The translations under genes were made by a program, and so were the position numbers. From a virus, in IMG/VR virus record IMGVR_UViG_3300050343_000218: a stretch of DNA of 64,000 nt; one strand, 5' to 3'. Position 1 is the stretch's first letter. Every line of letters begins with the position of its first letter. Shown one piece after another: positions 33,767 through 61,351 of the stretch. The notes under the pieces are model-generated. The model made no database searches. It was not told the origin of the DNA and saw only the letters and a list, made by a program, of their open reading frames with translations.

Positions 33767-33816
33767 TCAAATAGTTTTCCACAGGTTTCTGATGTAATGT
33801 GGAGCACTGTGACGGT

Positions 33817-34519: not shown

Positions 34520-34556
34520 GGCACTGTATAGTAACTGTGGAGACACTAGGTGGTGA

Positions 34557-34969: not shown

Positions 34970-35224
34970 CTAGTATCTAGTAGGGATATTCTTAGATTGT
35001 GTCACTTGTTCTTGTGTCACAGTGTTGTCTAGATCAGTAGGGCGTTGACCTAAGATGAGAGACTGTACGACCTTCGCCTTTTTAATGTTATTATCCATTG
35101 CGTTAATAGATCTAGTGATGCACTCATTGATATCATCATACATTTCAGTTGATGTTGATAGAGGATCACAGATGTATGCATCTAGGATAATTTGTAGTTC
35201 AGCTTTCAGTTGTTGGGAAGACAT
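34970..35224 (-). CDS. Hypothetical protein (84 aa)
   Basis: Tiles in a minus-strand operon. Confidence 0.65.
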   Translation of the reverse strand: MSSQQLKAELQIILDAYICDPLSTSTEMYDDINECITRSINAMDNNIKKAKVVQSLILGQRPTDLDNTVTQEQVTQSKNIPTRY

Positions 35225-35654
35225 AGTATTTGTAATGGGTGAAAGGTTTAGGGTGATGTAAGGTTAGGAACTTAATAGCGTGTTCTTCACATTGAAACCA
35301 AGCTATACGTTTTTCAGACTTAAGTTCAACTCTATAAGGGAAGGTAGGATGAGGGAATAGTTTAAGTTCCCGTGATCTAGTAGGTTTAAACTCTAGTTTC
35401 TTTACCTTCGCTTTCCGAGTTGTACCAGAACTCTTCTTTGTCTTTTTCTGTTGCTGTGGTGATGTTAGGGTTGATAGGTTTTGGTTTAAGGACTGCTGTG
35501 TTTTTACCTTGGGTGCTGGTTTGGTTTTGTTCGAGGTAGTTTTTGATGAGGGCTTTAAAGTCTTCTTTGGTGTAGGTGTTGAGGATGCTTTCTTTCGGGT
35601 CTGTTTCATCCCAGTCGATGTTGAAGCTTCCGTCTTCGTTTTGCGTGACATCAA
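35199..35654 (-). CDS. Basic low-complexity protein (up to 151 aa) overlapping the 90-aa gene in another frame
   Basis: The C-terminal FPHPTFPYRVELKSEKRIAWFQCEEHAIKFL looks like a real cyanophage domain. The only ATG codons (35651 and one shortly after) lie inside the 35386-35658 gene. Confidence 0.55.
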   Translation of the reverse strand: MMSRKTKTEASTSTGMKQTRKKASSTPTPKKTLKPSSKTTSNKTKPAPKVKTQQSLNQNLSTLTSPQQQKKTKKSSGTTRKAKVKKLEFKPTRSRELKLFPHPTFPYRVELKSEKRIAWFQCEEHAIKFLTLHHPKPFTHYKYYVFPTTES

Positions 35655-35658
35655 TCAT
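35386..35658 (-). CDS. Conserved cyanophage hypothetical protein (90 aa)
   Basis: MIDVTQNEDGSFNIDWDETDPKESILN.YTKEDF pattern. Confidence 0.7.
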   Translation of the reverse strand: MIDVTQNEDGSFNIDWDETDPKESILNTYTKEDFKALIKNYLEQNQTSTQGKNTAVLKPKPINPNITTATEKDKEEFWYNSESEGKETRV

Positions 35659-35695
35659 TGCCTAGTTAAATAGATGTAATTGAACGTATTCTACT

Positions 35696-35872
35696 ATGAG
35701 TTGTCGAAATTGCCAAGAGGTTGACTTGGATGATCTTGAAGATCAGATGTTTGCTCATTTGATAACAGAAATGGAAGAAGGCTTTACAGTGAAGCTAGAT
35801 GATGGTACAATCATTATCTTCGATAGTTTTGCGGAAGCAAAGGAGTTTATTTTTGATGGCGGATTACGCTAG
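35696..35872 (+). CDS. Small acidic protein (58 aa)
   Basis: Manual translation MSCRNCQEVDLDDLEDQMFAHLITEMEEGFTVKLDDGTIIIFDSFAEAKEFIFDGGLR. It follows TTAAATA at about 35666 and overlaps the oxygenase start. Confidence 0.65.
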   Translation: MSCRNCQEVDLDDLEDQMFAHLITEMEEGFTVKLDDGTIIIFDSFAEAKEFIFDGGLR

Positions 35873-36545
35873 AGAAGTAATAGAACATCGTACTGAGCAC
35901 GATACATTAATTAGAGAGTATCCTAATCATATACCACCACAAGTGTGTGATATGATTTGTGACTACACTGATCGCATTGAAGCAGGTCAGGAGCTTGGTG
36001 ATATCCATCGAGATAATGATACCTTCATCCGTAAAGATATCCAGTATTGGATGACTGAAGATTGCAATCCACGGTTACGTAATAGTATACTGAAAGGATG
36101 GGGTAAACTAATGAAGAATCAATATCTAAATGAGTTTACACAGCTTGGATTGAATGATTTCTGGATGAGTGCAGTTAAGATTCAGAAGACATATGCTGGT
36201 GGTGGATTTCATCGTTGGCACTATGATAACAATGGATTTGTAGTAATGGAACGTGAGTTTGTCATTACTTCATACCTTAATGATGTACATAATGGTGGAG
36301 AGACAGAGTTTCTTTATCAAGGTGTACGTGTGAAACCAGAGAAGGGAAAGACTGTAGTATTTCCAGCTGGTTATACACATATGCATAGAGGAAATCCCCC
36401 AATCGGTGGTACAAAATACATTGCAACAACGTGGGGGAATAGAATTCCTCGCATTGATGATAGAACAGAAGACCCAAGTATGGGTCATTATATCCGTCCT
36501 GCTGATCATATCATTGATCAGTATGGTGCTGGTGGATACGGTTAG
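35856..36545 (+). CDS. 2OG-Fe(II) oxygenase (probable start 35856)
   Basis: GGGFHRWHYD...YLNDVHNGGETEF...FPAGYTHMHRGNPP..GTKYIATTW gives the HxD...H facial triad. Confidence 0.9.
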   Translation: MADYAREVIEHRTEHDTLIREYPNHIPPQVCDMICDYTDRIEAGQELGDIHRDNDTFIRKDIQYWMTEDCNPRLRNSILKGWGKLMKNQYLNEFTQLGLNDFWMSAVKIQKTYAGGGFHRWHYDNNGFVVMEREFVITSYLNDVHNGGETEFLYQGVRVKPEKGKTVVFPAGYTHMHRGNPPIGGTKYIATTWGNRIPRIDDRTEDPSMGHYIRPADHIIDQYGAGGYG

Positions 36546-47685: not shown

Positions 47686-49632
47686 TTATCTTACTGTGAC
47701 GACAAGATGCCCACTACTATCTATATTGAATTCCAGACCGCTTGGTGCGAAGAACTGGTGTGTATTCAAATTAGATGAATATTCGGCATAAGAAACGTTT
47801 GTTTGTCTACCAGCATATACAATTGTTAAGTTTGTATCACCTGGTTGAGGTTTGCGAATGATGTAATAATCACCAGCATCACCAGACTCTTTCCAGTTTG
47901 CACCGTTATAAGTCTTGAATGTACTTTGAGCAGTATTATAGAATACTTGACCCACTGTGGGTGCTGCAGGATCAACAGCACCACTGATATCAATCTTAGG
48001 TGATGTTACAGCGCCATTATCAAGTTTAGATGTCTCTACAGCACTGTCACGCATTGTAGCTGCAGTAACTGCTTGAGATCCAGGGGTTTGATTCAATTTA
48101 GGTTCAGTTACAGCTCCATTTTGGAGGTTATCTGTAATAATACCACCCTGAGCAATTTTAGCTGCAGTGACAGCATCATCTGCAAGTTTTGGTGTCGTTA
48201 CACTTAGGTTAATGATCTTATTGGTTGACACCGAAAGATCATCTAGTGTGTCTGTCTGGACTCTTGTGAAGTCTTGCAGCGTACCAGTTGCGGTTGAAGG
48301 CGACTGGAATACATACCCTGCTGAATAAGCAGAGTAGATGCTGCTATTATAATAACGAACCCTAACGTAATAGTTAGTGGAAGGACGAATAGAGTCAAGA
48401 GGAATTGGGAATGTAGTTTTGTTTGTATTATCTTCTGTTGCAACGATCACTAGATTGGCGAAAGCTGCATCAGTTGCAACTTGCCAGTCACTATTAATGT
48501 GTGATTGTGTCGTTGATTGTGTAGCAACAAATGGTGATGTAACCACGTCTAGTCTATCGTAGATAGTAGATTCGATAACACTACTAACAAACGGACACTG
48601 TATTTCTCCAGGAACAGCAACAGTATTAAACTGTACAGGTTCTGACCATTCAGAATACCAATACTGTGCCTGCAAGTCAACATACTCGTAACGAACACGT
48701 ACAAAGTATGTCTTAGCTTCTTCTAGGATACCTAAAGAAAGAGTGAGACTTGTCTTATTGTTAATGTCATTCTGTGCTCTATGTACAAGACCACTAGTAT
48801 TATCAATCTGTGGTGATGGTGCACCAGATGCTCCAGGTGCACTGCCTGAGCTGCTACCAAATGTAGGAGAAAATGCAACTTCCCAGGTACTTGATACGTG
48901 AGTAGCACCATTACTACCAGTAAATCCACTGGATGTAATTGTAGGTGTAATGATTACATTAGAAGCATCAGCTACAGGAGAAAGAATAGCAGGACGATTA
49001 ATCTTAGGGTTAACATTAATCTGAGTGTCAGTATAGAATGATACTGGACTACTATAACTTGAGTACGTACCCAGGTTATCCTTATATCTTATTCTCACAT
49101 AATATAGATTATTATATGAAAGAGTTTGTGGAGTATATTGCGTCAGACTTGAGGGTGAATCGATCAGCTCCTCAACTATAGTAGTAAAGAGAAGATCGCT
49201 AGCGATCTGCCAATCAGTTCTAGTGTGAGTATTACCACCAACAAATGCAGATGATGTAATAACAGGAATCAATGGGGTTGGAGAAGAGATAGTAACAACA
49301 GGTGTTTCAATTGGAAGACCCGTGTTAAATTCTGCTACCTGTGACCAGTTAGAAATCTCAGATGCATCATCGCGATGTCTAACACGAACATAATAGAACG
49401 TGTCAGATACTAACGTAGCAGCTGGAATTGTCAGACTATTTAAGTTGACAGTATCATTCTGATTGTAAACTAATGATGCTGATGAGAAGGTATCCGATGT
49501 GGCGACTTGCCAGTCTGTCGAGTCGTGAGTACCAACTCCAGCTTCCCCAAAGAACGTTGTAGCGTTCAATGTGGGAGTTAGGGAAGATGGTGACGGAATG
49601 CTTCCCAACGCTGGTGGGTAAATTAATGCCAT
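47686..49632 (-). CDS. Structural protein with four Fn3-like repeats and AVTxxKL fibre repeats (648 aa)
   Basis: Four HxxxxW(Q/E)(V/I)A...F...Y(Y/F)VR(V/I)RY repeats, then AVTAAKIA / AVTEPKL / AVETSKL. Confidence 0.8.
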   Translation of the reverse strand: MALIYPPALGSIPSPSSLTPTLNATTFFGEAGVGTHDSTDWQVATSDTFSSASLVYNQNDTVNLNSLTIPAATLVSDTFYYVRVRHRDDASEISNWSQVAEFNTGLPIETPVVTISSPTPLIPVITSSAFVGGNTHTRTDWQIASDLLFTTIVEELIDSPSSLTQYTPQTLSYNNLYYVRIRYKDNLGTYSSYSSPVSFYTDTQINVNPKINRPAILSPVADASNVIITPTITSSGFTGSNGATHVSSTWEVAFSPTFGSSSGSAPGASGAPSPQIDNTSGLVHRAQNDINNKTSLTLSLGILEEAKTYFVRVRYEYVDLQAQYWYSEWSEPVQFNTVAVPGEIQCPFVSSVIESTIYDRLDVVTSPFVATQSTTQSHINSDWQVATDAAFANLVIVATEDNTNKTTFPIPLDSIRPSTNYYVRVRYYNSSIYSAYSAGYVFQSPSTATGTLQDFTRVQTDTLDDLSVSTNKIINLSVTTPKLADDAVTAAKIAQGGIITDNLQNGAVTEPKLNQTPGSQAVTAATMRDSAVETSKLDNGAVTSPKIDISGAVDPAAPTVGQVFYNTAQSTFKTYNGANWKESGDAGDYYIIRKPQPGDTNLTIVYAGRQTNVSYAEYSSNLNTHQFFAPSGLEFNIDSSGHLVVTVR

Positions 49633-49656: not shown

Positions 49657-52600
49657 TTATGCGCAAGTGGGGTTACAATCGCCTAGGTAAGAGAACAGAA
49701 CTGGCCACGGAGCAGGGATCTGGAAGTCCAATGCTCTAGGTGCAATTCCATCAGTTACCTTAATTTGTGCAACACCTTCCATACCGATGATCGGTTGTTC
49801 ACCGTGACCACGGTCGCGGAGGGGTTTAATGAAGTTACAGAAGTAATCATTAGATGGTGTAATGCAAGCACCGTTAGAGGTGTATGCAAAATCATAAGTG
49901 TGGTCCTGGCAAGGATCAGCAACTGCCACAAGGTTAATCAAGTCAACCAAATCGAATGGAGACTCAACCAGCTCCACCCACAATGTGTAGACCTTTTGAG
50001 TACCACGTGCAGGGAAGATAGCAGGTTGAATGTCATTCTTAACAGAGAAGTCAACAGGAAGGTTGACGTTAGTGTCACCACGGAAAGGACACTCGCGAAG
50101 TACTCCAGTTGCCGCGGCCAATTGACCACTATAAGTAGAGAAGTCGCCAGTATTAACAATCGTAGGAGCGTTAGCGTGGGCAGGATTATTTGTAGTGTAA
50201 ACAGTTCTAGTACCACTATCAACGTTTTCCATATAAGGGAACTCATTGATCAGACGCAATCTCCAGGTAAACTGACCAGCATCGATTGTGTAAGAGACCG
50301 TCACATCTTGTGACTGGTTGTTACTCACAGTCAGATTCTGTGCACCTTTGTAGTAATCTTGTACTTGCAAGGTGTTGATGTCAATGTAAGGCAGTGCACT
50401 CAAAGGTGCAGGACCCACGTCAATAACGAAAGAGCGAACTAAGACGTTACCAAAGTAATCGCCACAAGTCAGAGTAGTATCAACGAAGCCTTGATCGTGA
50501 CGCAGATAACCATTAGAAACGGTACCAGTCCAACCATTAGCATACTCATACCACCACATACCCATTTCAGGTGGGTTAGCAATAGCACTGATTTCGTTCG
50601 ACACAGAAGATAATGCATCGCCATTACCAACCACAACTTGATAAGCATACGGGTCATTTACACCACTTGGGATGCCCTTACAAGGAAGGTCAGTAACACG
50701 AAGCACAGTACCATCGTTTGCCAACGGAGGCTGTAGTTGTGAAGAAGATTGAACAGGAATTTCAATCTGAGGACCACCATAGTTCACACGAAGTGGGAAG
50801 TCTTCATCGAATGAAACGTAGTTCGCTTCGTAGATGCTAGCACCATCGAGAACACAAGAAGAATGATATGCAGTAGTATTGTTACCGTAATCTCTCCTGG
50901 ATCTATAATGTGGTGACTTGAGAGGAACATAAGTAGAACTGGTGTTAGCAACAGTGTCCCAGTTATAGGACTTAACGCCAGTAGAGGTATCATAACTATA
51001 AAGCTTTCTGTACCAGTTGAACTCGATGTTCTGGTCAGTACAAACAAGATTCACTGGGTAACGACCATCCTTAGGGGATTTGTTACTAGACTGATACGGT
51101 AACGTGTTAGGGAAGTGTGTTAAAGCACCATACTCAGTCACAACAGAGTAAGAACTCGAAGTGATTGATGTAGCGCCAGATTCCATTGTCAGCAGAGGTT
51201 GTGCAGGAACTGCAGGGATATTAGTAAGACCAAGCTGTAACGTATTGGAAAGCAATGCATTGAATACGCTGGTGAAATCAAGGTGCTGTGTAGCAAATGT
51301 AGTACCACCTGCCTGACCGAAGTAGAAGACAGAACCAGCTTGAGCTTCATCAACGATAAGATCGACCCAAGCACCTGGTGTGCCAGGAGTACCGTAACGT
51401 CTAACGTTAGTGCCAATGTATGCACTACCAGTAGCAGATTCTCTCAGTTCTAGGTTCTTACCAACCCAGGAAGCATCGCTAATATCAAAGCGATACGTAG
51501 CACCTTTGGGTACTTCAAACACAGTAGAACCAGACTCGTTAATGACAGTAGCATAGTCATTACCAGTAGCAACTAGATTGAATGTCAAGCGATAACGCAT
51601 CTTGAGGCGGAAGAAATCTTGATCATAATTCCACCATTTGTTAACAATGAGGAAAGAGATTGCAATTTCGTGTCCTGTGACATCTTCAAAAGTCTCATTG
51701 TAAGAGTAGAATTGATCTCTCGCTGCCAAATTATTCTCGAACCAATCGCCTTCTTCAATCTGACAAGATTGACCAGCAGCAACAGGACCAGTAGAATACT
51801 CGTTAATGTTATGCCATATGAAACCTGCACCTTTATCTCCCCAAATTTGCCACTGAGGAAGATAATCAAATTGAGTATTTTCGTAACCAGTTTGATATGC
51901 AAGAACACTGAATGACTTATAGCTCAGAGGACGTGAATACCACTTATTCTCTTCCCAGATAAGATCATCATTAGGTTGTCCGTCTTTCTTAGTGACAGTC
52001 AAGTAATCAATTGTTCTCGAAGCACCACCAGTCTTCAGCGCAACATTCTGTACTGTAACAGTAGTGTTAGTAAGCTGAATAGTATACTCTTGAGTCTGAC
52101 CAGAAATATTTTCTTCTACAGTCAGTGTCAAGTCAAGGGTTGTGTTGTTGATCAACGTACCACTCAAGACACCAGTTTCGGTATCGAATGCAAGACCAGT
52201 ACCAACAATAGAATCACCAGTCAGTGAATAATCTCTATCGAGAATTGTCTCTGCAGCATATGTTCTTAAGAAAGAAACACCAAGCTGAAGGTTGATAACA
52301 TCACCGATGTTAAATGTACCCAAAGCACCTGCAGGTGTGTACCACGTGGTCAACAGGTTGATATAAGGAGAGAACAGACCGCGAACATAACCGCCATCAA
52401 CACCCTTATCTGTAGGAAGGTAAACGATCTCATCACCTTCACCATTTCCAGCATCTTCTTGAGCTTCAGTCTGGAAATATAGTTTGTTGCCAACAGGATT
52501 TTCATCCATCCAGCGTTGGATACCATCAGCACGTTGATGAGTACCGTTCAAATTAGCAATCTTGATCAGATTGCCACCAGTTTCAGACTGAACACCAGTA

Positions 52601-55600
52601 AACTGAGCAGCATCAGGTTCAATTGTAATTCTGCTGTTAGCAGTATCAACATCAGTAATGGTTTGCCAGTATCTCTGAAGCACGTTGAATTGCACACCAC
52701 CAATGTCATAGACATAGGAGGATCCTTCTACAGCATTACCACCAGGATAGACAGGATCTGAGTAGAAGTAGTCACCCATTATGTAAGGATATGCAGGAGC
52801 TCCATTCTGATCTTCAGTGATGAAGTAAGCATAGGTTCCATTCGGATAGTCAGGTGTCACACAGTAGCGACCATTTCTGCTATCAACGTCACCGATGATA
52901 ATACGCTCACCCATATTAGAGTGATTGTAGCAGAAGTAGTACAACACGTGGGGAGCATTTGATGCAGGAGTATACTCAATGCTTCTCAAAGTAGCAGTGT
53001 CAAATCCTGCGACATATTCAGAATATGTTACTACAACATCTTCCAACTTGTACACAACACCGATTGTATAAACAGCGTTAACATCACCAGGAGACGATCC
53101 TGCAACGTGCCAACCTTGTGCTTGAGCATCACCATTAGTTGATAGCAGCATCATATGGCTGGTATTTGAACTATCAGAAAGGTTAAAGGTATACTTTCTA
53201 CCTTTCTTAAAGTTAAATGATGGTTTCTCAGCAGAACCACTTAATGTTCCACCAGAGATATAATAGCGACCACCACTACCACTAACAGTAGCAGCTGCAG
53301 CTTGAACATTGTAAGTAATGTCAGTAATATTATCTTCTTCGCTACCGCCTTGGAATTCAAAGTCTTCGTTAAAAGATCCAATAGGATAGGTTGTTTTGTC
53401 TGGACGTGATCCAAACATATCAGGAACTCTATTCTCTAGTTTCGGCAGATATGCAGGCTTCATACGAATAACCGCACTGCTATTGTCATCACGATCAGAA
53501 TAACCGTAAGGACCATAGATTGGATAACCGTCAAATGTCATACCAAGAATCTTGGAGTGACCGTTAGTATGACGCTTGTAATCACCCTGAACATTGCTGT
53601 TCACGACAGATTGATTACCCATACGTGGATGATTCACACAGACATAATACAGCAATGCAGGAGAGTTTTGAGGAACAACGATTGTAACCGTACGAGTAGT
53701 AGCACTATTGAAGCTATTGCTGAAAGTAACAGCATCAACTGCAGCACCATCCAATCTGTAAGTAACACCATCGCTATAACGAACACCACCATTATGAATA
53801 CCATCATCAGTGGTGGAGAAGTACATCGGGTGATTATCATTAGAAGAATCACTTAGATCAAAGATGTAAGTGTTACCTCTAGTGAAGTCCAGTTGTGGAG
53901 CTTCAACGTTAACGGTGTACGTATCACCACGGAGTACATAGTTATTAAGACTACCTTGATTGTAGTAAGGAGCTGATGCTGACTTAGTATCAGTGGTAAT
54001 AATATAGTTAACAGTACGATATCCTAGATCGTAGTAAGATTGAGACAGATAGTTAGAACCAGAAACAGCAACGGTGCCGTATGCACTCAACAGTTTGCTT
54101 GAGTTATAACCATAAACGTTAGCAGCACTTGGATAACCACCATAAGAGTCTTCACCCACGAGGTTACCATTAGTAACTGTATTGTATGTCCAACCAGGAG
54201 TAGGACCATTCTCGAAGGAATAGTGGTACAGGAATGTACCAGTAGTAGTAATACCGAAAGCATTTACACTGCGTAAAGGCTTCATCTCTACCAAGCTGGC
54301 AGATGCATAGTTAGTACCACCTCTCCAGTTAAAGTTCTGGTTAAAGGATTGCTTATCAATACTATTTGGGTTACCTGCAGTAATAGCAATCTGTGCAACA
54401 GATGTTGCTTGCACACCACCACTAACGTTTGGAGGATTAATAGTAACAGTAGGAGAAGTTGTGTATCCAGAACCCTGTTCAATCAAGTTAAGACCAGAAA
54501 CATAACCATCTAGCACTGAGATATTAGGAGATGCTACTGTACCAACACCGCCGCCACCACTAAATGTGATGTTAGCGTAAGTATAACCAACACCTTGATC
54601 AGTTACATTAATAGTATCAACTACACCAATTTGTGTACCAATCGTACACACAGAAGATGCAGGTTGCTCAAAGATTGGGTTTTGCGGTGCAGTGTCAGCT
54701 TCAGTGACTGGTTCGCCGTAGTACCTATCTCCTAGAATATATGGGAATGCAGGATTAGCAGAAGCATCGAATGTAGTGAAGTATGCATATGTGCCGCCAG
54801 GGAATTCAGGAGTGACACAGTAGCGACCATTGCAACGATCTAAGTTGCCACCACCAAGGTACTGATAGTCTTCCACAAATGAACCCATCGGATATGCCGT
54901 AGTAGACGGAGCATAACCAACTGGTTCAGTCAGAGTAATCGTACCTGTCATTGCCTGATGATTTTCGCAGACGTAATAATAAGTTCCAGGGGCTGTAGTT
55001 GTAGTACTCCACAACAACGTAGCATTGTAGCTACCATTGTTAACAACACCAGCAACAACTTGTGCAGGGTTATAAGGTGCAGGAACTTTCTGAATCCAGA
55101 AAGGATGAGTAATTGTAGTTCCACCGCCACCACCAGCAGACTGGATAGTGATAGTACCGACCATACCGCCGTGATACTCACACTGATAATAGTAAGTACC
55201 AGCAGAACCAATACCTGGAGTCCAAGCGACAGTACCAGACTGAGTACCTTGATTACTAACACCAGAGATTTGATTGCCAGTACCAGTACCAGCTGCAGTT
55301 TTTAGATAGAATGGGTGACCAGATGCAGACACCGTGAAGTTAATAGTATCACCTTCATAGAATGTCAGACTAGGATCAGATCCACTAACGTTGCCAGTTC
55401 TATCAGAACCAGAGACAGTGTAATCGCTAAAACCACTTGCAGTAACAACTAAGTTATAAGTTGCAGGTGTACTACCACCGCCACCACCAGTAGTATAAGA
55501 AGCATTGACGTTGAACACAAGGTTGTCGCCAATGTTAGCAGCGATTGCAATATCACTACCAATTGCTTCTCCAGTAAAATCAAAGTCTAAGCTATCATCA

Positions 55601-58600
55601 GCAGTAACACCCCAGGTGTACGTAGATCCACTATATTGTGTCCCATCACGCTCTCCCTTAACACCCCAAGAACTTTGCATTCTTGAAAGTGTGGTGGGTG
55701 AACCAGGACTTGAATAACCAATAGGACCGTAGATTGGATAACCATCGTATGCATAACCAATCACAGGAGAGTGATGAGTTGCATTAATAATATCTGCAGT
55801 TGTATGCGAAGGAAGAGCTGCAGTGTTTGTAGTTGTAGTCACAGATGCAGCATTGCCGTATCCAGAATACAATGAGCAGTAGTAGTAGAGATTAGGGGTG
55901 TCAGGTTGAACTTGAAGATATAAACCTGTACCAGATACACCGTCACCAGGTGTACCTTGATAACGATATCCAATCTCGTATGCAACACCGCCTTGAGTAT
56001 GCACACCATCCTGAGTTTCAGAGATTCTGAAAGGATAACCAGCGTTACTTACATCACTCTGATCAAAGTAATAAGTATTACCTTCAGTGAGAATGATATT
56101 AGGTGTCAGACCATTGTTAAGGTAGTACTTGTTACCACCACCAGGATCATTAATGGTTACAGTATAGGTTGTAGAAGAACCTTTCCAAGTATTAACTAAG
56201 AAATTACCTGTAATGTAGTGATACATACCAGAACCATCTACAACACCGCTACCATTATCAGCGCCAAATGCAGTAGAGTTGAAAATTTTGTTGAAGGTAT
56301 ATCCATCAGGACAACCAGTACCATCAGGCAAATCAACATTCAAACCGTGCGAAAGATGACGCAGTTGTACACCATTCAGCGCCATACCAATAGAAGGTTG
56401 AGCTAAAGTAGATGTAGGAGATTCATCGGAAATATTTCTACCACCACGATAAACCCAGGTATGGTTGTAAGACTGACCTGTAATAGTATTGGAGTTATTG
56501 CTATTTGGGAAAGCTCCATACAATGCAGGTTGAGGCAGGTTATCTGCAATAACCGTCAGCAATCTTGTAGTCTGATTCAGTGACGAAGAGGTAGTAGAAC
56601 CACCGCCAGACACGAAAGAACTATCAGGAGCGTGGATAGTGTTACCTTGATTAGCTGCAGCAGAGATTGCAATGCCAACAGTAGGTGCCTCAGAATATCC
56701 TGATCCAGGATTAGAAATATTAACCGCACTAACGATACCATCAGTAATGACAGCTACAGCAGTAGCACCAGATCCACCACCACCAGTAAATGTAACTGCA
56801 GGAAGGTTTAGAGGATTATAACCAGAACCACCATTAGTAACCGTAACAGAATCAATACCACCACCAGTTAGAGAGATAACAGCTGTTGCAGTTGCGCCAG
56901 TACCATCACCAGCGATATCAACAGTAGGAGCTTCGGTATATCCAGCACCACTTTGATCAACGTTGATGCTTGTAATATTACCACCAGTCAGTGTGATGTC
57001 TGCGGTTGCAGTTGCACCAGTACCGCCACCACCAGTAAATGCAACAGATGGGACAATAGTATAACCAGAACCTTGATTCTGGATAGACAAGGTAGAAACA
57101 TAACCAGTAGTACCACCAGAAGGGAATACACCAGCAAGACCAGGAGCAGGATCGTTATCAGTGACAAGATTCAACAATCCGCCAGCTTGATAATATGCTG
57201 CTGTCGGTGATCCATCACTACTAACCCAAACGTCAGTGATGATATCCACTGAAGGAACTGCCTCAGGGATACGGAACTGCATCTTATCACCAACAGTAGC
57301 ATCGAATCTAGAGAATTCACTACCCAATGTGATAGACATTTCATTGGTGCCAGCACCAACAGCAATGTAAGTATTGATGCCATCGAGAGTAATCTCATCG
57401 ATGTCATTAGTAGGATAAACGTTTACACTACCACCACCATATTCTTCACCAACAGCGGATTGCGTTCTCTCGTAATCCCAATCAATTTCTCTACGAATCC
57501 ACTCTTTAGCAAGTTTAGGAACAGATTTGCCTTCATATGTTGCTCTGTTCTCATATCCTTTCTTGCCCAAATACTGCGCGATAACGCCAGCAGTCAGAGG
57601 ACCAGAGAATGAAGTACCACGAATATAAGCATAATAAATGGAACCAACAGAGCTGTAAGAACTGTTGGTGTTCCAATAATACTGAGGGCAGTAAATTGAT
57701 TCTCCAGGACCACTGGTGGTAACACCAGTACCATAGTTTGAGAATCCTGAGAATGTATTATTATATGCCGTAGCACCGACAGAAATCTTGTCGCTAATAC
57801 CCTCCATATTATATCTGTAGTCCTGAGGACCAGCAGTACGAGGACCAGGATTAAACTTAGCTTGGAATCCACCGTACTTAAAGTTATAACCGTAACCGTT
57901 ACCAGCAGAGCGAACGAATACGATTCCGTTTTCTACACAAAGATTTTCATAGTCGTCCATAGCAGTGTCTGCTTCATATGAACCACTATCGAATCCAGGT
58001 TCGTTCTGAGGAACGTAACGATAGACTTCAGACGGAATAGTACCAACACCCAGAGAAGCATTGATAATAGCTGGTCTAGTACTTCCTTTATAGTTAGGAT
58101 GAGCAGGATCGTTATGGTTGATGATTGCTAGTAGAGCAAACACATATGTGGACAATAGACCACTACCAGCGCTGTTCTGACATTTCAGTGCATAGAATCT
58201 AGTCTTACGTGCAACACCGTGCTCCAGACCACCAATTAGAATGGCACATTGACTACCGTGACCATTGTCATCTTCGTTAGAGTTTGCCTCACCATTTACA
58301 GTGTATCCTGAATTGTATCCAGGAACTTCATAGACACGATATTCAGCCTGATTAATAGCAGTATTGTAGTCATCAGCATAATCAGGGTGGAATAGTTCAG
58401 GGTGCAAGTTAGCACCAGTAACGTTAGTAGGACGTGATGCACCACGAATACCAGTATCAATAACATAACAGTCAACACCCTCACCGTGCTCGGTGTAAGA
58501 GTACAGACCATAATTCAGTGAATTTTGTTGCTGAGTGATACGTGCAAGATACCACTTACTAAAGATTGCGACTTTACAATGATCGGTAGCATTTAAGAAT

Positions 58601-59346
58601 CCACCGCCACGCAAACCAACTCTTGAGGTTTCGTTAGCATAAAGATAAAGCTGCTGCGGAGTTGTCTGCGAAACAGTTAGTGTTACTTCAGCACCAGTGG
58701 TACCAGGAGTAGCAGTTCTGGAGACACCAACCACATAGTTAGTACCGCCATTATGAGTACCATCAGGAGTCTCAGAGAAAGCTAAAGTATAACCAAAGTT
58801 AGAGTTATCAGAAACATCAATAACTAATTCGTGTCCAGGAAAAACATATGTCAGGTCAGGAGCTTGTGATCCGTTGATGTATAACTTAGGACCACTAGTA
58901 GTATTAACAACAGTAGCAGCGATTGAATACTGAGTACCAGAACCAACGTTATAAGGAATAACGTTGCCGTAATCGCTAGGTTTAATTTGACGTGCTAGCG
59001 CATCAATGTCTTCGTTGTCAGTTGATAAAGACTCTGCAATTGCTCTTCTATCAAAAGAACCACCTTGCACATCAACTTCTTCTAATCCATATGTCTGTGA
59101 ATCATCAGTTTCTACCCCCGTTAGGTAAATTTCTCTATCCCAAACAGCTCCAATAACCTCAGGGAATTCATCTCCCTTTAATATTTGTACAAAGTTATCG
59201 TCTTTTACGTCGAAATCTAAGAATAAAGTCTTAAGACGACTCAGATCTTCGGTGTTCTGAAGTGATGTAAAACGCTGTTTCGCTCTTTCGATGACAGCGC
59301 TGGCTTGATTTTCCTTAGAAATTCTCGCAATAATTCTATTGCTCAT
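49657..59346 (-). CDS. Giant multidomain virion protein: S8 subtilisin-like protease + YHYH domains + cupredoxin-like modules (3229 aa)
   Basis: S8 motifs VIDTG / GHGSQCA / SAGN / GTSFSGP. YHYH-family motifs SPVIGYAYDGYPIYGP and NGRYCVTPEFP. Four CxxHxxM motifs. Preceded by a late promoter. Confidence 0.88.
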   Translation of the reverse strand: MSNRIIARISKENQASAVIERAKQRFTSLQNTEDLSRLKTLFLDFDVKDDNFVQILKGDEFPEVIGAVWDREIYLTGVETDDSQTYGLEEVDVQGGSFDRRAIAESLSTDNEDIDALARQIKPSDYGNVIPYNVGSGTQYSIAATVVNTTSGPKLYINGSQAPDLTYVFPGHELVIDVSDNSNFGYTLAFSETPDGTHNGGTNYVVGVSRTATPGTTGAEVTLTVSQTTPQQLYLYANETSRVGLRGGGFLNATDHCKVAIFSKWYLARITQQQNSLNYGLYSYTEHGEGVDCYVIDTGIRGASRPTNVTGANLHPELFHPDYADDYNTAINQAEYRVYEVPGYNSGYTVNGEANSNEDDNGHGSQCAILIGGLEHGVARKTRFYALKCQNSAGSGLLSTYVFALLAIINHNDPAHPNYKGSTRPAIINASLGVGTIPSEVYRYVPQNEPGFDSGSYEADTAMDDYENLCVENGIVFVRSAGNGYGYNFKYGGFQAKFNPGPRTAGPQDYRYNMEGISDKISVGATAYNNTFSGFSNYGTGVTTSGPGESIYCPQYYWNTNSSYSSVGSIYYAYIRGTSFSGPLTAGVIAQYLGKKGYENRATYEGKSVPKLAKEWIRREIDWDYERTQSAVGEEYGGGSVNVYPTNDIDEITLDGINTYIAVGAGTNEMSITLGSEFSRFDATVGDKMQFRIPEAVPSVDIITDVWVSSDGSPTAAYYQAGGLLNLVTDNDPAPGLAGVFPSGGTTGYVSTLSIQNQGSGYTIVPSVAFTGGGGTGATATADITLTGGNITSINVDQSGAGYTEAPTVDIAGDGTGATATAVISLTGGGIDSVTVTNGGSGYNPLNLPAVTFTGGGGSGATAVAVITDGIVSAVNISNPGSGYSEAPTVGIAISAAANQGNTIHAPDSSFVSGGGSTTSSSLNQTTRLLTVIADNLPQPALYGAFPNSNNSNTITGQSYNHTWVYRGGRNISDESPTSTLAQPSIGMALNGVQLRHLSHGLNVDLPDGTGCPDGYTFNKIFNSTAFGADNGSGVVDGSGMYHYITGNFLVNTWKGSSTTYTVTINDPGGGNKYYLNNGLTPNIILTEGNTYYFDQSDVSNAGYPFRISETQDGVHTQGGVAYEIGYRYQGTPGDGVSGTGLYLQVQPDTPNLYYYCSLYSGYGNAASVTTTTNTAALPSHTTADIINATHHSPVIGYAYDGYPIYGPIGYSSPGSPTTLSRMQSSWGVKGERDGTQYSGSTYTWGVTADDSLDFDFTGEAIGSDIAIAANIGDNLVFNVNASYTTGGGGGSTPATYNLVVTASGFSDYTVSGSDRTGNVSGSDPSLTFYEGDTINFTVSASGHPFYLKTAAGTGTGNQISGVSNQGTQSGTVAWTPGIGSAGTYYYQCEYHGGMVGTITIQSAGGGGGTTITHPFWIQKVPAPYNPAQVVAGVVNNGSYNATLLWSTTTTAPGTYYYVCENHQAMTGTITLTEPVGYAPSTTAYPMGSFVEDYQYLGGGNLDRCNGRYCVTPEFPGGTYAYFTTFDASANPAFPYILGDRYYGEPVTEADTAPQNPIFEQPASSVCTIGTQIGVVDTINVTDQGVGYTYANITFSGGGGVGTVASPNISVLDGYVSGLNLIEQGSGYTTSPTVTINPPNVSGGVQATSVAQIAITAGNPNSIDKQSFNQNFNWRGGTNYASASLVEMKPLRSVNAFGITTTGTFLYHYSFENGPTPGWTYNTVTNGNLVGEDSYGGYPSAANVYGYNSSKLLSAYGTVAVSGSNYLSQSYYDLGYRTVNYIITTDTKSASAPYYNQGSLNNYVLRGDTYTVNVEAPQLDFTRGNTYIFDLSDSSNDNHPMYFSTTDDGIHNGGVRYSDGVTYRLDGAAVDAVTFSNSFNSATTRTVTIVVPQNSPALLYYVCVNHPRMGNQSVVNSNVQGDYKRHTNGHSKILGMTFDGYPIYGPYGYSDRDDNSSAVIRMKPAYLPKLENRVPDMFGSRPDKTTYPIGSFNEDFEFQGGSEEDNITDITYNVQAAAATVSGSGGRYYISGGTLSGSAEKPSFNFKKGRKYTFNLSDSSNTSHMMLLSTNGDAQAQGWHVAGSSPGDVNAVYTIGVVYKLEDVVVTYSEYVAGFDTATLRSIEYTPASNAPHVLYYFCYNHSNMGERIIIGDVDSRNGRYCVTPDYPNGTYAYFITEDQNGAPAYPYIMGDYFYSDPVYPGGNAVEGSSYVYDIGGVQFNVLQRYWQTITDVDTANSRITIEPDAAQFTGVQSETGGNLIKIANLNGTHQRADGIQRWMDENPVGNKLYFQTEAQEDAGNGEGDEIVYLPTDKGVDGGYVRGLFSPYINLLTTWYTPAGALGTFNIGDVINLQLGVSFLRTYAAETILDRDYSLTGDSIVGTGLAFDTETGVLSGTLINNTTLDLTLTVEENISGQTQEYTIQLTNTTVTVQNVALKTGGASRTIDYLTVTKKDGQPNDDLIWEENKWYSRPLSYKSFSVLAYQTGYENTQFDYLPQWQIWGDKGAGFIWHNINEYSTGPVAAGQSCQIEEGDWFENNLAARDQFYSYNETFEDVTGHEIAISFLIVNKWWNYDQDFFRLKMRYRLTFNLVATGNDYATVINESGSTVFEVPKGATYRFDISDASWVGKNLELRESATGSAYIGTNVRRYGTPGTPGAWVDLIVDEAQAGSVFYFGQAGGTTFATQHLDFTSVFNALLSNTLQLGLTNIPAVPAQPLLTMESGATSITSSSYSVVTEYGALTHFPNTLPYQSSNKSPKDGRYPVNLVCTDQNIEFNWYRKLYSYDTSTGVKSYNWDTVANTSSTYVPLKSPHYRSRRDYGNNTTAYHSSCVLDGASIYEANYVSFDEDFPLRVNYGGPQIEIPVQSSSQLQPPLANDGTVLRVTDLPCKGIPSGVNDPYAYQVVVGNGDALSSVSNEISAIANPPEMGMWWYEYANGWTGTVSNGYLRHDQGFVDTTLTCGDYFGNVLVRSFVIDVGPAPLSALPYIDINTLQVQDYYKGAQNLTVSNNQSQDVTVSYTIDAGQFTWRLRLINEFPYMENVDSGTRTVYTTNNPAHANAPTIVNTGDFSTYSGQLAAATGVLRECPFRGDTNVNLPVDFSVKNDIQPAIFPARGTQKVYTLWVELVESPFDLVDLINLVAVADPCQDHTYDFAYTSNGACITPSNDYFCNFIKPLRDRGHGEQPIIGMEGVAQIKVTDGIAPRALDFQIPAPWPVLFSYLGDCNPTCA

Positions 59347-59380
59347 TGCACGAATTGAATACAGTACTTTCCCTGAAAGT

Positions 59381-59388
59381 TATTTATG
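59381..59388 (-). promoter_or_regulatory. Late promoter CATAAATA
   Basis: Plus strand tatttatg, 35 nt upstream of the 3229-aa gene start. Confidence 0.7.
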
Positions 59389-60049
59389 ATCTCAGATCGC
59401 CTTTAGTTCGTAGTAAATGCATTTTCTGTTCGTCTATGATTCTAACCATTTCCCATTCAGGAGAATCTGGACTGTATTCTGTATTAGTAATACATTCTTG
59501 CATTCTTGCAAATGCCAGACGATCCATAGGATCTTTGAGTCTAGACTGAGCCCAAAGCACTGCTACTTTCCTTTCACCAGCAGTTACAGGTTTAACTCTA
59601 TGTGGTATTCCAGTAGGGTAACTAAATGCCCACCCTGCTGGTAACTTAACACTAATCAGTTCAGTGCCAAGTTTAATCTCCAATTCCCCACCTTCATAGT
59701 CTTCATTTAAAAAAACTGTGGTACTAACATCAGATCGTAAATCTTGATTAGAACCCATATGTGCGTGATCGGTATGCCAATCATAATGGCATCCTACACC
59801 ATACTTACAAAAATGTGGTAACGTATAAGCACAGCTCAGCATTGAGTCGCGTACAACATCACAATTATCCATAGAACCTTCCAATATACTCCAGCACGCA
59901 TATGCAGACTGTTTGTCTATTTGGAAATTATTCTTTACTCGTTTATCGCTACTGCCAGATTCTTTACCATCCTCCCAGGTACCAGCATCACAAAGATTTA
60001 ATATATGCCCGACTTGGACGGAATTCAAAAGTTCATAACGATAAAACAT
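59384..60049 (-). CDS. PKHD-type (PiuC/YbiX-like) 2OG-Fe(II) hydroxylase
   Basis: YDWHTD...STTVFLNEDYEGGELEI...YPTGIPHRVKPVTAGERKVAVLWAQS. Confidence 0.9.
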   Translation of the reverse strand: MFYRYELLNSVQVGHILNLCDAGTWEDGKESGSSDKRVKNNFQIDKQSAYACWSILEGSMDNCDVVRDSMLSCAYTLPHFCKYGVGCHYDWHTDHAHMGSNQDLRSDVSTTVFLNEDYEGGELEIKLGTELISVKLPAGWAFSYPTGIPHRVKPVTAGERKVAVLWAQSRLKDPMDRLAFARMQECITNTEYSPDSPEWEMVRIIDEQKMHLLRTKGDLRS

Positions 60050-60051
60050 AA

Positions 60052-60702
60052 TTAAGAGGGTTTAGTAGGCCAACCAGTAAAGTTTTCAGGATCGTAGGGA
60101 TCATCTGTTTGAGCAGCAGGAAGATCTCTAAGTAATGTACGATATGCTGCCCATTCAGCTTTTTTCTCATCAGTAAGAGGAGAATCAGCCATCTGGGTCC
60201 AATCACAATCAAGTAGACGAGTGTGTCTCGCGTGCTTCAATGTTTTCATATTCTCAGGAACACCTTCGGTAAGGTATCTGTGAGCATCAAATTGTTCTTC
60301 TACAACTGCCGCCTCAGCTGCAATATGCTCTGCCGTAAGTTCTTCTAGTCTAGTCCTAAGAGCATTGTAAATCTTATCTGCTTCTGCCGTACTAGGACCA
60401 CCATTCAGAGGCGTTTTATTATAGTTACTAGGAATCTCTCCAGAACACTCTGTGTTCTCTGTGATATAAAAAGATGGTGAGATAATTCCGTCCCCATCAT
60501 CTGAAGATAACCAATAGTACATCATCTCAAATTGATCAACACCAGGAACATCCCAAATGCCAACCAAAAGAGGTGCCACTAATGTATTATATTCTTCGCC
60601 AATATCAAAGAAGAGAGTAGTTCCAAAAGGAGCGTGGTACGTACCAATCACCTTCTGAATATTGTTAATAACTAATGCTGCTTTTCCAAAATCTCTTGCC
60701 AT
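60052..60702 (-). CDS. Protein with a C-terminal phage tail (fibre) assembly chaperone domain
   Basis: RLLDCDWTQMADSPL...KAEWAAYRTLLRDLP...WPTKP is the typical tail assembly chaperone signature. Confidence 0.85.
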   Translation of the reverse strand: MARDFGKAALVINNIQKVIGTYHAPFGTTLFFDIGEEYNTLVAPLLVGIWDVPGVDQFEMMYYWLSSDDGDGIISPSFYITENTECSGEIPSNYNKTPLNGGPSTAEADKIYNALRTRLEELTAEHIAAEAAVVEEQFDAHRYLTEGVPENMKTLKHARHTRLLDCDWTQMADSPLTDEKKAEWAAYRTLLRDLPAAQTDDPYDPENFTGWPTKPS

Positions 60703-60703
60703 T

Positions 60704-61351
60704 TTATGCGTTGTGATAGTACCAACCAGTCAAGATATATTTATTGCCTTTTAATACTGTATTTCCTCTGTGGGGATGCGTAAAACCAGCTGGCCAAACT
60801 ACAACAGTTCCTGCAGGAGGTTTAACCCGACGTTTTTGCATCAAAAACTCAGTCTCACCAGCTTCATAATCATCATTCAAATATATCGCCCACACTAAAC
60901 ACCGAGAAGAATGGTTAAGACCCATAGCCTCATAATGCCAGACGTGATATCCACCACCTTCCTCTGTTTTTTGCAACTTGATGCAACTACTAATCAGTGA
61001 TTCGCCTGCAAGCTGTGGAAACTCACCAATGTAATGTTCAACAGTTGATGCCAAATATTGATTAGTGCATTGCTGCAACTCAAGATTTTGATGAGTAATC
61101 AGGGTTTGTTTATCATATCTACCCTGCTTCCCTTGAGGAAACTGAAATCTACCGTCAGCAATATCACCGTTATCCATTGAGGATCCGATAACACTAGCGT
61201 GAGATTCTAGATCATCAAACCAATCAATATATTTCTGACACTCGGATTTGGGCATAAAACTATCCCAAACACCAATAAAATCATCAAAGTTTGATTTAGT
61301 CAAGTTCTCATCGAGCATCAGCTCTAGAGGACGAATAGGTGTAATGTCCAT
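60704..61351 (-). CDS. 2OG-Fe(II) oxygenase
   Basis: GGGYHVWHYE...YLNDDYEAGETEF...WPAGFTHPHRGN...KYILTGW. Paralogue of 35856-36545. Confidence 0.9.
   Translation of the reverse strand: MDITPIRPLELMLDENLTKSNFDDFIGVWDSFMPKSECQKYIDWFDDLESHASVIGSSMDNGDIADGRFQFPQGKQGRYDKQTLITHQNLELQQCTNQYLASTVEHYIGEFPQLAGESLISSCIKLQKTEEGGGYHVWHYEAMGLNHSSRCLVWAIYLNDDYEAGETEFLMQKRRVKPPAGTVVVWPAGFTHPHRGNTVLKGNKYILTGWYYHNA

What the first reader, a model, noticed from the sequence alone, without database searches (positions are those of the whole stretch)
57540..59346. Intact subtilisin-family protease at the N-terminus of a 3229-aa late protein
The full S8 catalytic set is present: Asp in VIDTG (58456-58458), His in GHGSQCA (58258-58260), oxyanion Asn in SAGN (57898-57900) and Ser in GTSFSGP (57610-57612). 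It is preceded by an approximately 90-aa segment that could be an I9-like prodomain. The gene is late-promoter-driven and sits among tail genes. A virion-displayed protease could cut S-layer, giant surface proteins or pili to reach the receptor, or could mature the fibre complex (inference).
Basis: partly seen in the sequence, partly recalled or inferred. Interest (0 to 1): 0.78.

Follow-up and report, generated by a model that had tools for sequence, protein, structure and literature searches.

The report
Subtilisin zymogen heading cyanophage tail protein
A 3,229-residue late tail-region protein of an uncultured marine cyanobacterial virus begins with a complete, self-inhibited subtilisin-type protease, so the virus particle may carry a protein-cutting enzyme, which no one has tested.

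Summary
ORF 49657-59346 (-) encodes 3,229 aa. Residues about 264-600 match Pfam Peptidase_S8 (E 4e-22) and resemble proteinase K and aqualysin. All four catalytic residues are invariant in 120 homologues that share 42-85% identity with this domain.

The prodomain idea is right in kind but wrong in layout. Residues 1-74 form a beta-alpha-beta-beta-alpha-beta domain. Two predictors dock it on the catalytic domain like an I9 propeptide, with its tail in the active-site cleft (complex score 0.70, best control 0.00). A disordered linker (75-137) and a copper-ligand-less cupredoxin-like module (138-250) separate it from the enzyme. Sequence models do not recognise it as I9.

The gene sits among fibre and baseplate genes, behind a CATAAATA late-promoter-like motif. 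Its P-HM2 orthologue is transcribed late.

The family is not new. Sullivan et al. 2010 listed an S8 peptidase in P-HM1 and P-HM2, and S-BM3's homologue is annotated "peptidase S8". This scan has also flagged it in other genomes.

Presence in the virion, enzyme activity and substrate remain untested.

Best reading: an auto-activating protease zymogen on a virion appendage, with the target unknown. It is a new variant of a known kind, of moderate interest.

The parts
49657..59346 (-). Whole gene: 3,229-aa late protein (P0001). It holds the N-terminal protease unit, then beta-repeat, YHYH and cupredoxin-like modules, and a C-terminal ~1,000 aa of no known family.
59380..59387 (-). CATAAATA, a T4-type late-promoter-like motif 34 nt upstream of the ATG. 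It overlaps the stop codon of the upstream oxygenase gene.
   Evidence: All 7 ATAAATA in the window are on the minus strand; 5 lie 24-35 nt upstream of the start of an ORF of 200 aa or more.
59125..59346 (-). Residues 1-74: beta-alpha-beta-beta-alpha-beta domain, I9-propeptide-like in fold and predicted docking. The tail (about residues 70-80, ...WDREIYLTGVE) is predicted to lie in the active-site cleft.
   Evidence: (pLDDT 81-90). The sequence tests are weak or negative.
58936..59124 (-). Residues 75-137: variable linker with low-confidence structure. Much of it is missing in the shorter (~1,830-2,080 aa) relatives such as P-HM1, called the P-HM clade from here on.
   Evidence: gap fraction 0.77 at residues 76-100
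58597..58935 (-). Residues 138-250: cupredoxin-like beta-sandwich that has lost the His/Cys/His/Met copper ligands. It is a paralogue of the internal modules at residues 1059-1164 and 1810-1910. The same module in P-HM-clade relatives keeps the ligands.
57547..58557 (-). Residues 264-600: S8 subtilase catalytic domain of the proteinase K / aqualysin type. It has family-specific conserved insertions between Asp and His (about 301-355) and at about 436-475 and 485-520.
58456..58458 (-). Catalytic Asp297 (VIDTG)
   Evidence: 120/120
58258..58260 (-). Catalytic His363 (GHGSQCA)
   Evidence: 120/120
57898..57900 (-). Oxyanion-hole Asn483 (SAGN)
   Evidence: 120/120
57610..57612 (-). Catalytic Ser579 (GTSFSGP)
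   Evidence: 120/120

Best explanation
The first ~600 residues of this giant late protein form a complete subtilase zymogen. Residues 1-74 are an I9-like propeptide. They most likely act as the folding helper and cis-inhibitor of a proteinase-K-type S8 domain (residues 264-600). This keeps a broad-range protease silent while the protein is made in the cytoplasm of the infected cell; there is no signal peptide. The propeptide tail lies in the substrate cleft and is probably cut by Ser579 somewhere near residues 74-78. The conserved aromatic residue four positions after the invariant Asp70 is a plausible P1 residue (the one just before the cut). The rest of the chain is fibre/baseplate-type modules and is incorporated into the tail apparatus, so the particle would carry a protease. 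The most likely use is cutting proteinaceous host-surface material during adsorption. Shown: the intact, conserved S8 domain; the fold of the N-terminal domain; late transcription of an orthologue; the tail-gene context. Predicted: docking of the propeptide with its tail in the active site. Inferred: autocleavage, release of the propeptide, presence in the virion and the substrate.
For: S8 identity and integrity: Pfam E 4.2e-22; PDB sequence matches to aqualysin and proteinase K; fold match Z 22.1, rmsd 3.1 A, 238 aligned to 4dzt. Selection: D297, H363, N483 and S579 are 120/120 in homologues 42-85% identical to this domain, where 17.5% of columns are invariant. The substrate-strand motifs (GSG at 394-396, S431 and G433 of SLG) are also kept. 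Propeptide: residues 1-72 fold as b-a-b-b-a-b with pLDDT 81-90. The best structural matches of the 700-aa model are pro-enzymes aligned from model residue 1-2 to about 645: PCSK9 5vla_A (Z 24.0, 291 aligned), unprocessed pro-subtilisin E 3whi_A (Z 23.1, 302 aligned) and pro-Tk-subtilisin 2z2z (Z 20.7, 310 aligned). Mature-only enzymes align about 238-250 residues. A separate two-chain prediction scored 0.70, with 0.00 for the best of 3 controls. That mark was reached by 58 of 80 solved complexes and 2 of 110 mismatched pairs. The runs agree in at least 82% of contacts, and partner pLDDT is at least 82. The interface joins propeptide residues 2-8, 35-42 and 66-80 to S8 residues 297-298, 363, 394-410, 431-435, 480-483 and 573-580, which is the active site and the cleft. 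In S-BM3-type relatives (P0125, P0127, P0128) the same N-domain abuts the S8 domain directly at about residue 89, the classical propeptide layout. Late and tail context: CATAAATA lies 34 nt upstream. PHM2_106 is 'Late (E)' like g13. Neighbours are a Phage_tail_APC chaperone, fibre-like proteins, and gp25/gp6/gp8 homologues. Parts of the protein match PHROG families labelled baseplate wedge subunit or virion structural protein.
Against: No experiment shows activity, autocleavage or presence in the virion for any family member. The published cyanomyovirus virion proteomes cover phages in which my search found no homologue of this domain. The N-domain is not recognised as I9 by sequence: Pfam finds nothing in 22 members, and an I9 HMM built from cellular relatives finds no phage sequence. 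The profile-profile comparison gives only P 0.011. On its own the domain matches only the generic ferredoxin-like fold, such as ACT, HMA and NGN domains, at Z 8-9. The complex pass may reflect the predictor's memory of solved pro-subtilisins. The second half of the S8 domain is modelled with low confidence (pLDDT under 50 at residues 481-579). If fibres attach by their N-termini as in T4, an N-terminal protease would sit near the particle rather than at the tip.
Confidence: 0.6

Rival explanations
1. Single-turnover, PCSK9-like module. The S8 domain cuts only its own propeptide, which stays bound and blocks the site for good. The folded domain then serves as a structural or adhesive head of the appendage, not as an enzyme acting on the host.
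For: The top structural matches of the model are PCSK9 chains with the prodomain in place (Z 24.0). The propeptide is predicted to bind tightly across the active site. Catalytic residues would stay conserved under this model too, because self-cleavage needs them.
Against: PCSK9 tops the list largely because its chain contains both parts; aqualysin and proteinase K are the closest by sequence. Nothing here distinguishes retention of the propeptide from its release.
Confidence: 0.17
2. Assembly or maturation protease. The domain trims the giant protein itself at further sites, or trims neighbouring fibre proteins, during tail-fibre assembly in the infected cell. It plays no part at the host surface.
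For: The gene lies in a block with a tail assembly chaperone (Phage_tail_APC) and two 2OG-Fe(II) oxygenases, which suggests heavy post-translational handling of fibre proteins. This synteny is kept in about 13-15 related loci. Self-cleaving domains are known in phage fibres (peptidase S74 chaperone domains; my own knowledge).
Against: Most cyanomyoviruses build related YHYH/cupredoxin giant proteins without any S8 domain. 385 phage records match the C-terminal modules, but only 7 records (4 cultured phages) hold the S8 part. So the protease is not needed to assemble such proteins. No conserved internal cleavage motif was identified.
Confidence: 0.15
3. Not a virion component: a late, non-structural protease used inside the cell or at lysis, for example to recycle host protein or weaken the envelope from within.
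For: No proteomic evidence places any family member in a particle. There is no signal peptide, so the protein stays in the cytoplasm until lysis.
Against: The protein is 3,229 aa with modules shared with PHROG families labelled baseplate wedge subunit or virion structural protein. It lies between fibre genes. The P-HM1 orthologue sits immediately before neck genes gp13 and gp14.
Confidence: 0.06
4. Inactive relic: a subtilase fold kept only as scaffold.
For: None specific. The conserved insertions and a poorly modelled C-terminal half leave room for an altered cleft.
Against: All four catalytic residues and the substrate-strand motifs are invariant across 120 diverged homologues. A matching inhibitor-like propeptide is retained.
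Confidence: 0.02

Closest known systems
Proteinase K / aqualysin I subfamily of subtilases (MEROPS S8A) with an I9 propeptide
   Same: Same catalytic order and motifs: D-T-G, H-G-T/S-x-C, S-L-G, A-G-N and G-T-S. Same W-x-L-x-R-I start of the mature domain, and the same fold. An N-terminal b-a-b-b-a-b domain is predicted to sit on the enzyme with its tail in the cleft.
   Different: There is no signal peptide. The propeptide is not detectable as I9 by sequence. Here it is separated from the enzyme by a linker and a cupredoxin-like domain. There are three conserved family-specific insertions. The enzyme is fused to about 2,600 further residues of phage appendage modules.
T4-GC 519 proteins of cultured cyanomyoviruses: P-HM1 PHM1_104 (1,832 aa), P-HM2 PHM2_106, the MED4-213 homologue CPMG_00018, and S-BM3 SBM3_00202 (annotated 'peptidase S8')
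   Same: These are true homologues: 34-41% identity over 75-98% of the first 700 residues for the P-HM1, P-HM2 and MED4-213 proteins, and 42% over 37% for S-BM3. Sullivan et al. 2010 (PMC3037559) already list an S8 peptidase among the genes special to P-HM1 and P-HM2. PHM2_106 is transcribed late.
   Different: The window's protein belongs to a separate 3.2-kaa clade, known only from uncultured contigs. It has a longer linker, a ligand-less N-terminal cupredoxin module, and a different, much longer C-terminal part. In the P-HM clade the C-terminal ~166 aa resemble the N-terminus of the window's next gene.
Cell-envelope proteinases of Gram-positive bacteria (lactococcal PrtP, streptococcal C5a peptidase ScpA)
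   Same: An analogy from my own knowledge: a pro-subtilase at the N-terminal end of a very long multi-domain chain that is anchored to a surface by its other end and cuts external proteins.
   Different: This protein has no signal peptide and no LPXTG anchor. It lies in a phage structural-gene context, and no relationship beyond the shared S8 domain was tested.
PCSK9
   Same: Best structural match of the whole N-terminal model, with the prodomain docked (Z 24.0, rmsd 3.6 A, 291 aligned). It is a precedent for a subtilase that cuts only itself.
   Different: Only 19% identity. It is a eukaryotic secreted protein. The sequence of the window's domain is nearer to bacterial proteinase-K-type enzymes.
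Peptidase S74 intramolecular chaperone domains of phage tail fibres and spikes
   Same: A self-cleaving protease/chaperone unit built into a phage appendage protein (my own knowledge).
   Different: Those domains are C-terminal, have a Ser-Lys dyad and a different fold. No Pfam match was found in this protein.

Membership tests
Peptidase S8 (subtilase), Pfam PF00082 | Profile match above the curated threshold | tested here: met
   79.2 bits against a cut-off of 21.8, E 4.2e-22, residues 295-598. The scan of the whole 3,229-aa protein did not list this family.
Peptidase S8 (subtilase), Pfam PF00082 | Catalytic triad in the order Asp-His-Ser, with an oxyanion-hole Asn | tested here: met
   D297, H363, N483 and S579. 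They align with the aqualysin motifs and are 120/120 in homologues.
Peptidase S8 (subtilase), Pfam PF00082 | Subtilisin alpha/beta fold | tested here: met
   Aqualysin 4dzt Z 22.1, rmsd 3.1 A, 238 aligned; proteinase K 2prk Z 21.4; Foldseek E 4e-08. The model's pLDDT is low at residues 481-579.
Peptidase S8 (subtilase), Pfam PF00082 | Proteolytic activity | not testable with these tools
   Needs an enzyme assay.
Inhibitor I9 propeptide, Pfam PF05922 | Sequence profile match | tested here: inconclusive
   No Pfam match in 22 N-domains at E up to 10. An HMM built from cellular I9 domains finds none in the phage proteins. hhalign gives P 0.011 in the expected register. The Tk-subtilisin propeptide scores E 1.2.
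Inhibitor I9 propeptide, Pfam PF05922 | b-a-b-b-a-b open-sandwich fold at the N-terminus of a subtilase | tested here: met
   E3-9, H12-25, E29-35, E40-45, H50-57, E64-69, with pLDDT 81-90. The fold is common, so the domain alone matches only generic ferredoxin-like domains.
Inhibitor I9 propeptide, Pfam PF05922 | Sheet packs on the enzyme's surface helices, and the C-terminal tail occupies the substrate cleft up to the catalytic Ser | tested here: met
   This rests on prediction only. Pro-enzymes align from model residue 1-2 to about 645. The complex scores 0.70 against a best control of 0.00, and propeptide residues 70-80 touch 297-298, 363, 431-435, 480-483 and 573-580. The result may reflect likeness to solved pro-subtilisins.
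Inhibitor I9 propeptide, Pfam PF05922 | Autocatalytic cleavage and inhibition of the mature enzyme | not testable with these tools
   Needs expression of wild type and Ser579Ala, followed by N-terminal mapping.
Cyanomyovirus T4-GC 519 family (P-HM1 PHM1_104 and relatives) | Homology of the N-terminal protease unit in a late structural-region gene | tested here: met
   tblastn shows 34.7% identity over 98% of 700 aa, E 9e-84. The annotation was read. phrog_27200 scores E 7e-174.
Peptidase S74 tail-fibre intramolecular chaperone | Pfam match to a C-terminal self-cleaving domain | tested here: not met
   No such family appears in the Pfam scans of the whole protein or of the last 1,030 aa.
Virion structural protein | Detected in purified particles | not testable with these tools
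   No proteome exists for a phage carrying this gene; the published ones are for S-SM1, S-PM2 and Syn9. The only support is context and PHROG labels.

The most novel reading that the evidence does not exclude
The phage particle carries a latent proteinase-K-like enzyme on a giant tail appendage. The enzyme is held off by its own propeptide inside the cell. Once in seawater or at the host, it becomes active and digests proteinaceous surface structures of marine Synechococcus or Prochlorococcus (S-layer, giant surface proteins) to reach the receptor. This would be a protein-cutting counterpart of the sugar-cutting depolymerases on other phage tails.
Probability: 0.25. Interest if true: 0.8.

Novelty: new variant of a known kind. 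Interest (0 to 1): 0.55.

Why it matters
Phage tail enzymes known to clear a path to the receptor are almost all glycan or peptidoglycan hydrolases. I found no paper in the held library describing a virion-borne subtilase of a phage.

This family is widespread in marine cyanomyovirus contigs: at least 120 clusters at 90% identity, and 112 IMG/VR stretches. It also has orthologues in cultured, tractable phage-host pairs, namely P-HM1 and P-HM2 on Prochlorococcus MED4 and S-BM3 on Synechococcus WH7803. That makes the question of whether phages use proteases on host surface proteins directly testable.

Surface proteins are a major axis of cyanobacterial resistance to phages (general knowledge, not checked here), so a proteolytic appendage would bear on host range in the ocean's main primary producers.

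The finding also exposes an annotation gap. Pfam scans of the full-length 3.2-kaa proteins list only YHYH, so the protease goes unseen in this clade.

Tried and rejected
(1) A megablast search of phage records found nothing. The window's own assembly is not held, and the nearest held record (13 kb) lacks the gene.

(2) I9 by sequence. Pfam on the 700-aa piece and on 22 N-domains gave no match. A profile search against PDB sequences gave only Tk-subtilisin propeptide at E 1.2. A home-made I9 HMM found none in the phage proteins. hhalign gave only P 0.011. I therefore do not file the N-domain as a sequence member of I9.

(3) A fold search with the N-domain alone returned only the common ferredoxin-like fold: ACT, HMA and NGN domains at Z 8-9, and Foldseek E at or above 0.011. 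This says nothing specific.

The 263 residues before the enzyme consist of the propeptide-like domain, a linker and a cupredoxin-like module.

(5) Literature searches for cyanophage or phage virion subtilases, for peptidase S8 in tails, for S-BM3 and for PHM2_106 found no functional study. The P-HM2 metabolic-model preprint infers virion content from T4 homology, not from proteomics.

(6) No tRNA genes are in the window.

(7) I considered a cell-envelope-proteinase relationship but kept it as an analogy only, because there is no signal peptide and no LPXTG anchor.
Full report
**What is in the sequence**

The minus-strand ORF 49657..59346 encodes 3,229 residues. Asp297 (GAT, 58456-58458) lies in VIDTG, and His363 (CAC, 58258-58260) in GHGSQCA. 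Asn483 (AAC, 57898-57900) lies in SAGN, and Ser579 (TCA, 57610-57612) in GTSFSGP.

A Pfam scan of the full protein lists only YHYH and a weak copper-binding match. The first 700 residues on their own match Peptidase_S8 at E 4.2e-22, with 79.2 bits against a cut-off of 21.8, over residues 295-598.

By sequence, the nearest solved structures are aqualysin I (E 6.9e-14), a Meiothermus keratinase and proteinase K. The Asp, His and Ser regions all align, as does the W-x-L-x-R-I start typical of mature proteinase-K-type enzymes. PHROGs gives phrog_27200 (E 7e-174) and a 'protease' family, phrog_3677, over residues 264-630.

**Is the protease under selection?**

The large protein database holds at least 120 clusters of homologues. 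They fall into a ~3,230-3,320-aa clade, to which the window belongs, and a ~1,830-2,080-aa clade. IMG/VR holds 112 related stretches.

I aligned the N-terminal 800 residues of all 120. D297, H363, N483 and S579 are each 120/120. Identity to the query within the S8 region ranges from 42 to 85% (median 49%), and only 59 of 337 columns (17.5%) are invariant. The substrate-strand motifs are also kept (GSG at 394-396; S431 and G433 of SLG).

There are three family-specific insertions with invariant residues of their own. The first lies between Asp and His at about 301-355, with S304, R305, P306, H315, E317, Y336 and R337 invariant. The others lie at about 436-475 and 485-520.

An exhaustive HMMER search of 1.84 billion representatives found only 10 clusters below E 1e-30. 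Scores then drop to ordinary cellular subtilases, with 81 clusters below 1e-10 and 2,836 below 1e-3. This is therefore a narrow, phage-borne branch of S8.

**What precedes the enzyme**

The AlphaFold model of residues 1-700 (21-row alignment A1) has a mean pLDDT of 60. It divides as follows:

- Residues 1-72 form a confident b-a-b-b-a-b unit (pLDDT 81-90).
- Residues 75-137 form a low-confidence linker.
- Residues 138-250 form a beta-sandwich.
- The S8 fold begins at about residue 262. Its second half is poorly modelled (pLDDT under 50 at 481-579).

The beta-sandwich is a paralogue of the protein's internal cupredoxin-like modules at 1059-1164 (E 3e-13) and 1810-1910 (E 2e-11). It has lost the copper ligands: Tyr replaces the first His, and A..E..V replaces C..H..M. 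The same module in the P-HM clade keeps GH...C..H..M.

**Is the N-terminal domain a propeptide?**

Sequence tests are negative or weak:

- Pfam I9 is not found in any of 22 N-domains.
- A profile of the N-domains against PDB sequences gives the Tk-subtilisin propeptide only at E 1.2.
- An I9 HMM built from cellular relatives, 7 of 10 of which carry Pfam I9, finds many cellular I9 domains but none in the phage proteins.
- A profile-profile comparison gives P 0.011, although in the expected register, with ...PEV..A.WD... against ...P.V.yvE.D....
- The domain folded alone (pLDDT 76) matches only the very common ferredoxin-like fold.

Structural context speaks more clearly. In the second-look alignment of the 700-residue model, the best matches are pro-enzymes aligned from model residue 1-2 to about 645:

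| Chain | Z | Residues aligned |
|---|---|---|
| PCSK9 5vla_A | 24.0 | 291 |
| Unprocessed pro-subtilisin E 3whi_A | 23.1 | 302 |
| ProN-Tk-SP 3afg | 21.6 | 306 |
| Pro-Tk-subtilisin 2z2z | 20.7 | 310 |

Mature enzymes align only about 238-250 residues, starting from model residue 261. The N-domain is thus placed where a propeptide sits.

An independent two-chain prediction (S8 residues 255-620 with N-domain residues 1-85) scored 0.70, against 0.00 for the best of three controls. That mark was reached by 58 of 80 solved complexes and 2 of 110 mismatched pairs. The runs agree in at least 82% of contacts, and the partner's pLDDT is at least 82. The counts hold only roughly here, because my own alignments were used.

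The interface joins the N-domain's strands (residues 2-8, 35-42, 66-70) to the S8 segment 394-410. It joins the tail 70-80 to residues 297-298, 363, 431-435, 480-483 and 573-580, that is, to the triad, the oxyanion Asn and the substrate strands. This is the textbook propeptide mode, and the pass may come from the predictor's memory of solved pro-subtilisins. It shows likeness, not binding.

Comparative anatomy agrees. In the S-BM3-type relatives (P0125, P0127, P0128) the same ~75-residue N-domain is followed almost at once by the W-H-L-D start of the enzyme at about residue 89.

Asp70 is invariant, and an aromatic residue four positions later (Tyr74 here, Phe elsewhere) is conserved in both layouts. 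I take a cut near residues 74-78 as the likely processing site. This is inference.

**Timing and neighbourhood**

CATAAATA lies at 59380-59387 on the coding strand, 34 nt before the ATG, and overlaps the stop codon of the preceding gene. ATAAATA occurs only 7 times in the window, against 14 expected, and always on the coding strand. Five occurrences lie 24-35 nt upstream of the start of an ORF of 200 aa or more. The other two lie ahead of possible small ORFs. That NATAAATA is the cyanomyovirus late-promoter motif is my own knowledge.

The P-HM2 orthologue PHM2_106 is classed 'Late (E)', the same class as g13, in the infection transcriptome of Thompson et al. 2016 (PMC5082946, supplementary file 3).

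Upstream of the gene lie a 2OG-Fe(II) oxygenase, a Phage_tail_APC chaperone-type protein, a second oxygenase and a large structural protein. Downstream lie an Ig/fn3-bearing fibre-like protein of 648 aa and further fibre-like genes. Further on come homologues of gp25, gp6 and gp8, with a 3,972-aa ORF between gp6 and gp8. The upstream block is kept in the 3.2-kaa clade. In P-HM1 the orthologue lies directly before gp13, gp14 and gp15.

The phage itself is a distant, uncultured T4-like cyanophage. Its gp6 is at most 52% identical to that of any cultured phage, and the best matches are all Synechococcus phages. The longest contig carrying this exact protein is 185,752 bases.

**What is already known**

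Sullivan et al. 2010 (PMC3037559) list "an S8 peptidase" among genes found only in P-HM1 and P-HM2. They name T4-GC518, whereas the GenBank record places the large protein in T4-GC 519. The S-BM3 homologue is annotated 'peptidase S8'.

Among 50,697 phage records, only P-HM1, P-HM2, MED4-213 and S-BM3 hold the S8 part, while 385 records hold relatives of the C-terminal modules. The protease is therefore an accessory head on a common type of giant protein.

The published virion proteomes (S-SM1, S-PM2, Syn9) come from phages in which my search found no homologue of this domain. I found no functional study.

Earlier notes of this scan flag the same architecture in other genomes, including the idea of a propeptide separated by a cupredoxin-like module. 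I read them after reaching that view.

**How it most likely works**

Shown:

- a complete, conserved S8 domain;
- a conserved N-terminal b-a-b-b-a-b domain;
- a late, tail-gene context.

Predicted:

- the N-domain docks as a propeptide, with its tail in the cleft.

Inferred:

- the protein folds in the cytoplasm as a self-inhibited zymogen;
- it cuts its own propeptide;
- it is built into the tail apparatus through its long C-terminal part;
- it presents a protease that acts outside the cell.

The rivals are these:

- A PCSK9-like single-turnover module whose propeptide never leaves.
- A fibre-maturation protease.
- A non-virion late protease.
- An inactive relic, which the conservation makes very unlikely.

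The data here cannot separate the first two rivals from the main reading. The decisive experiments are simple and can be done in the cultured P-HM2/MED4 and S-BM3/WH7803 systems.

**Verdict**

This is a new variant of a known kind, namely a proteinase-K-type pro-subtilase with a displaced propeptide, fused to a giant cyanophage appendage protein. It belongs to a family already noticed in annotation but never studied. Interest is moderate.

Noticed in passing
P0128 and P0127 (S-BM3-type relatives): In these relatives a plastocyanin-like module with His, Cys, His and Met in the usual pattern (e.g. ...SASGHPF...YVCQFHGGMTG...) is inserted inside the S8 domain. It sits in the loop that matches the window's insertion at about residues 436-475. 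The protease and blue-copper folds are thus nested there, not just adjacent.
   Followed up: partly
window 47686-49632 (-) and L001:13987-14484: The N-terminal ~170 residues of the window's next gene (a 648-aa fibre-like protein) are homologous to the C-terminal end of the P-HM-clade S8 proteins (phrog_27200 positions 1656-1828; tblastn hits in 62 loci). This points to a gene fusion or fission at that point and hints at which end joins the next fibre part.
   Followed up: partly
window 59384-61351 (-): Two 2OG-FeII_Oxy_3 oxygenases flank a Phage_tail_APC chaperone-type gene directly upstream of the protease gene. The block is syntenic in about 13-15 related loci of the 3.2-kaa clade. It may hydroxylate fibre proteins.
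   Followed up: partly
window, whole; ATAAATA at 636, 11009, 25399, 36939, 45787, 59381, 60738: The motif is depleted (7 found, 14 expected) and occurs only on the coding strand. It mostly lies 24-35 nt upstream of start codons, and three copies overlap the stop codon of the preceding gene.
   Followed up: partly
P0001 whole protein against its first 700 aa: Pfam scans of the full-length 3.2-kaa proteins report only YHYH, and the precomputed labels for P0001-P0018 also lack PF00082. The isolated N-terminus scores E 4e-22. Automatic annotation therefore misses the protease in this clade.
   Followed up: yes
window 28000-36000: There is a G+C peak of 0.49 at 30-32 kb, and strong swings of GC and AT skew between 28 and 36 kb. 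The region holds many small ORFs, and no tRNA genes were found in the window.
   Followed up: no
window 49660-52749 (-), residues about 2200-3229: The last ~1,000 residues of the giant protein have no Pfam or PHROG match. Among the fetched loci they are found only in the nine whose sequence reaches that far.
   Followed up: no
window 22953-24767 (-): The gp6 baseplate homologue is at most 52% identical to that of any cultured phage, so the phage is a deep, uncultured branch of T4-like cyanophages.
   Followed up: partly
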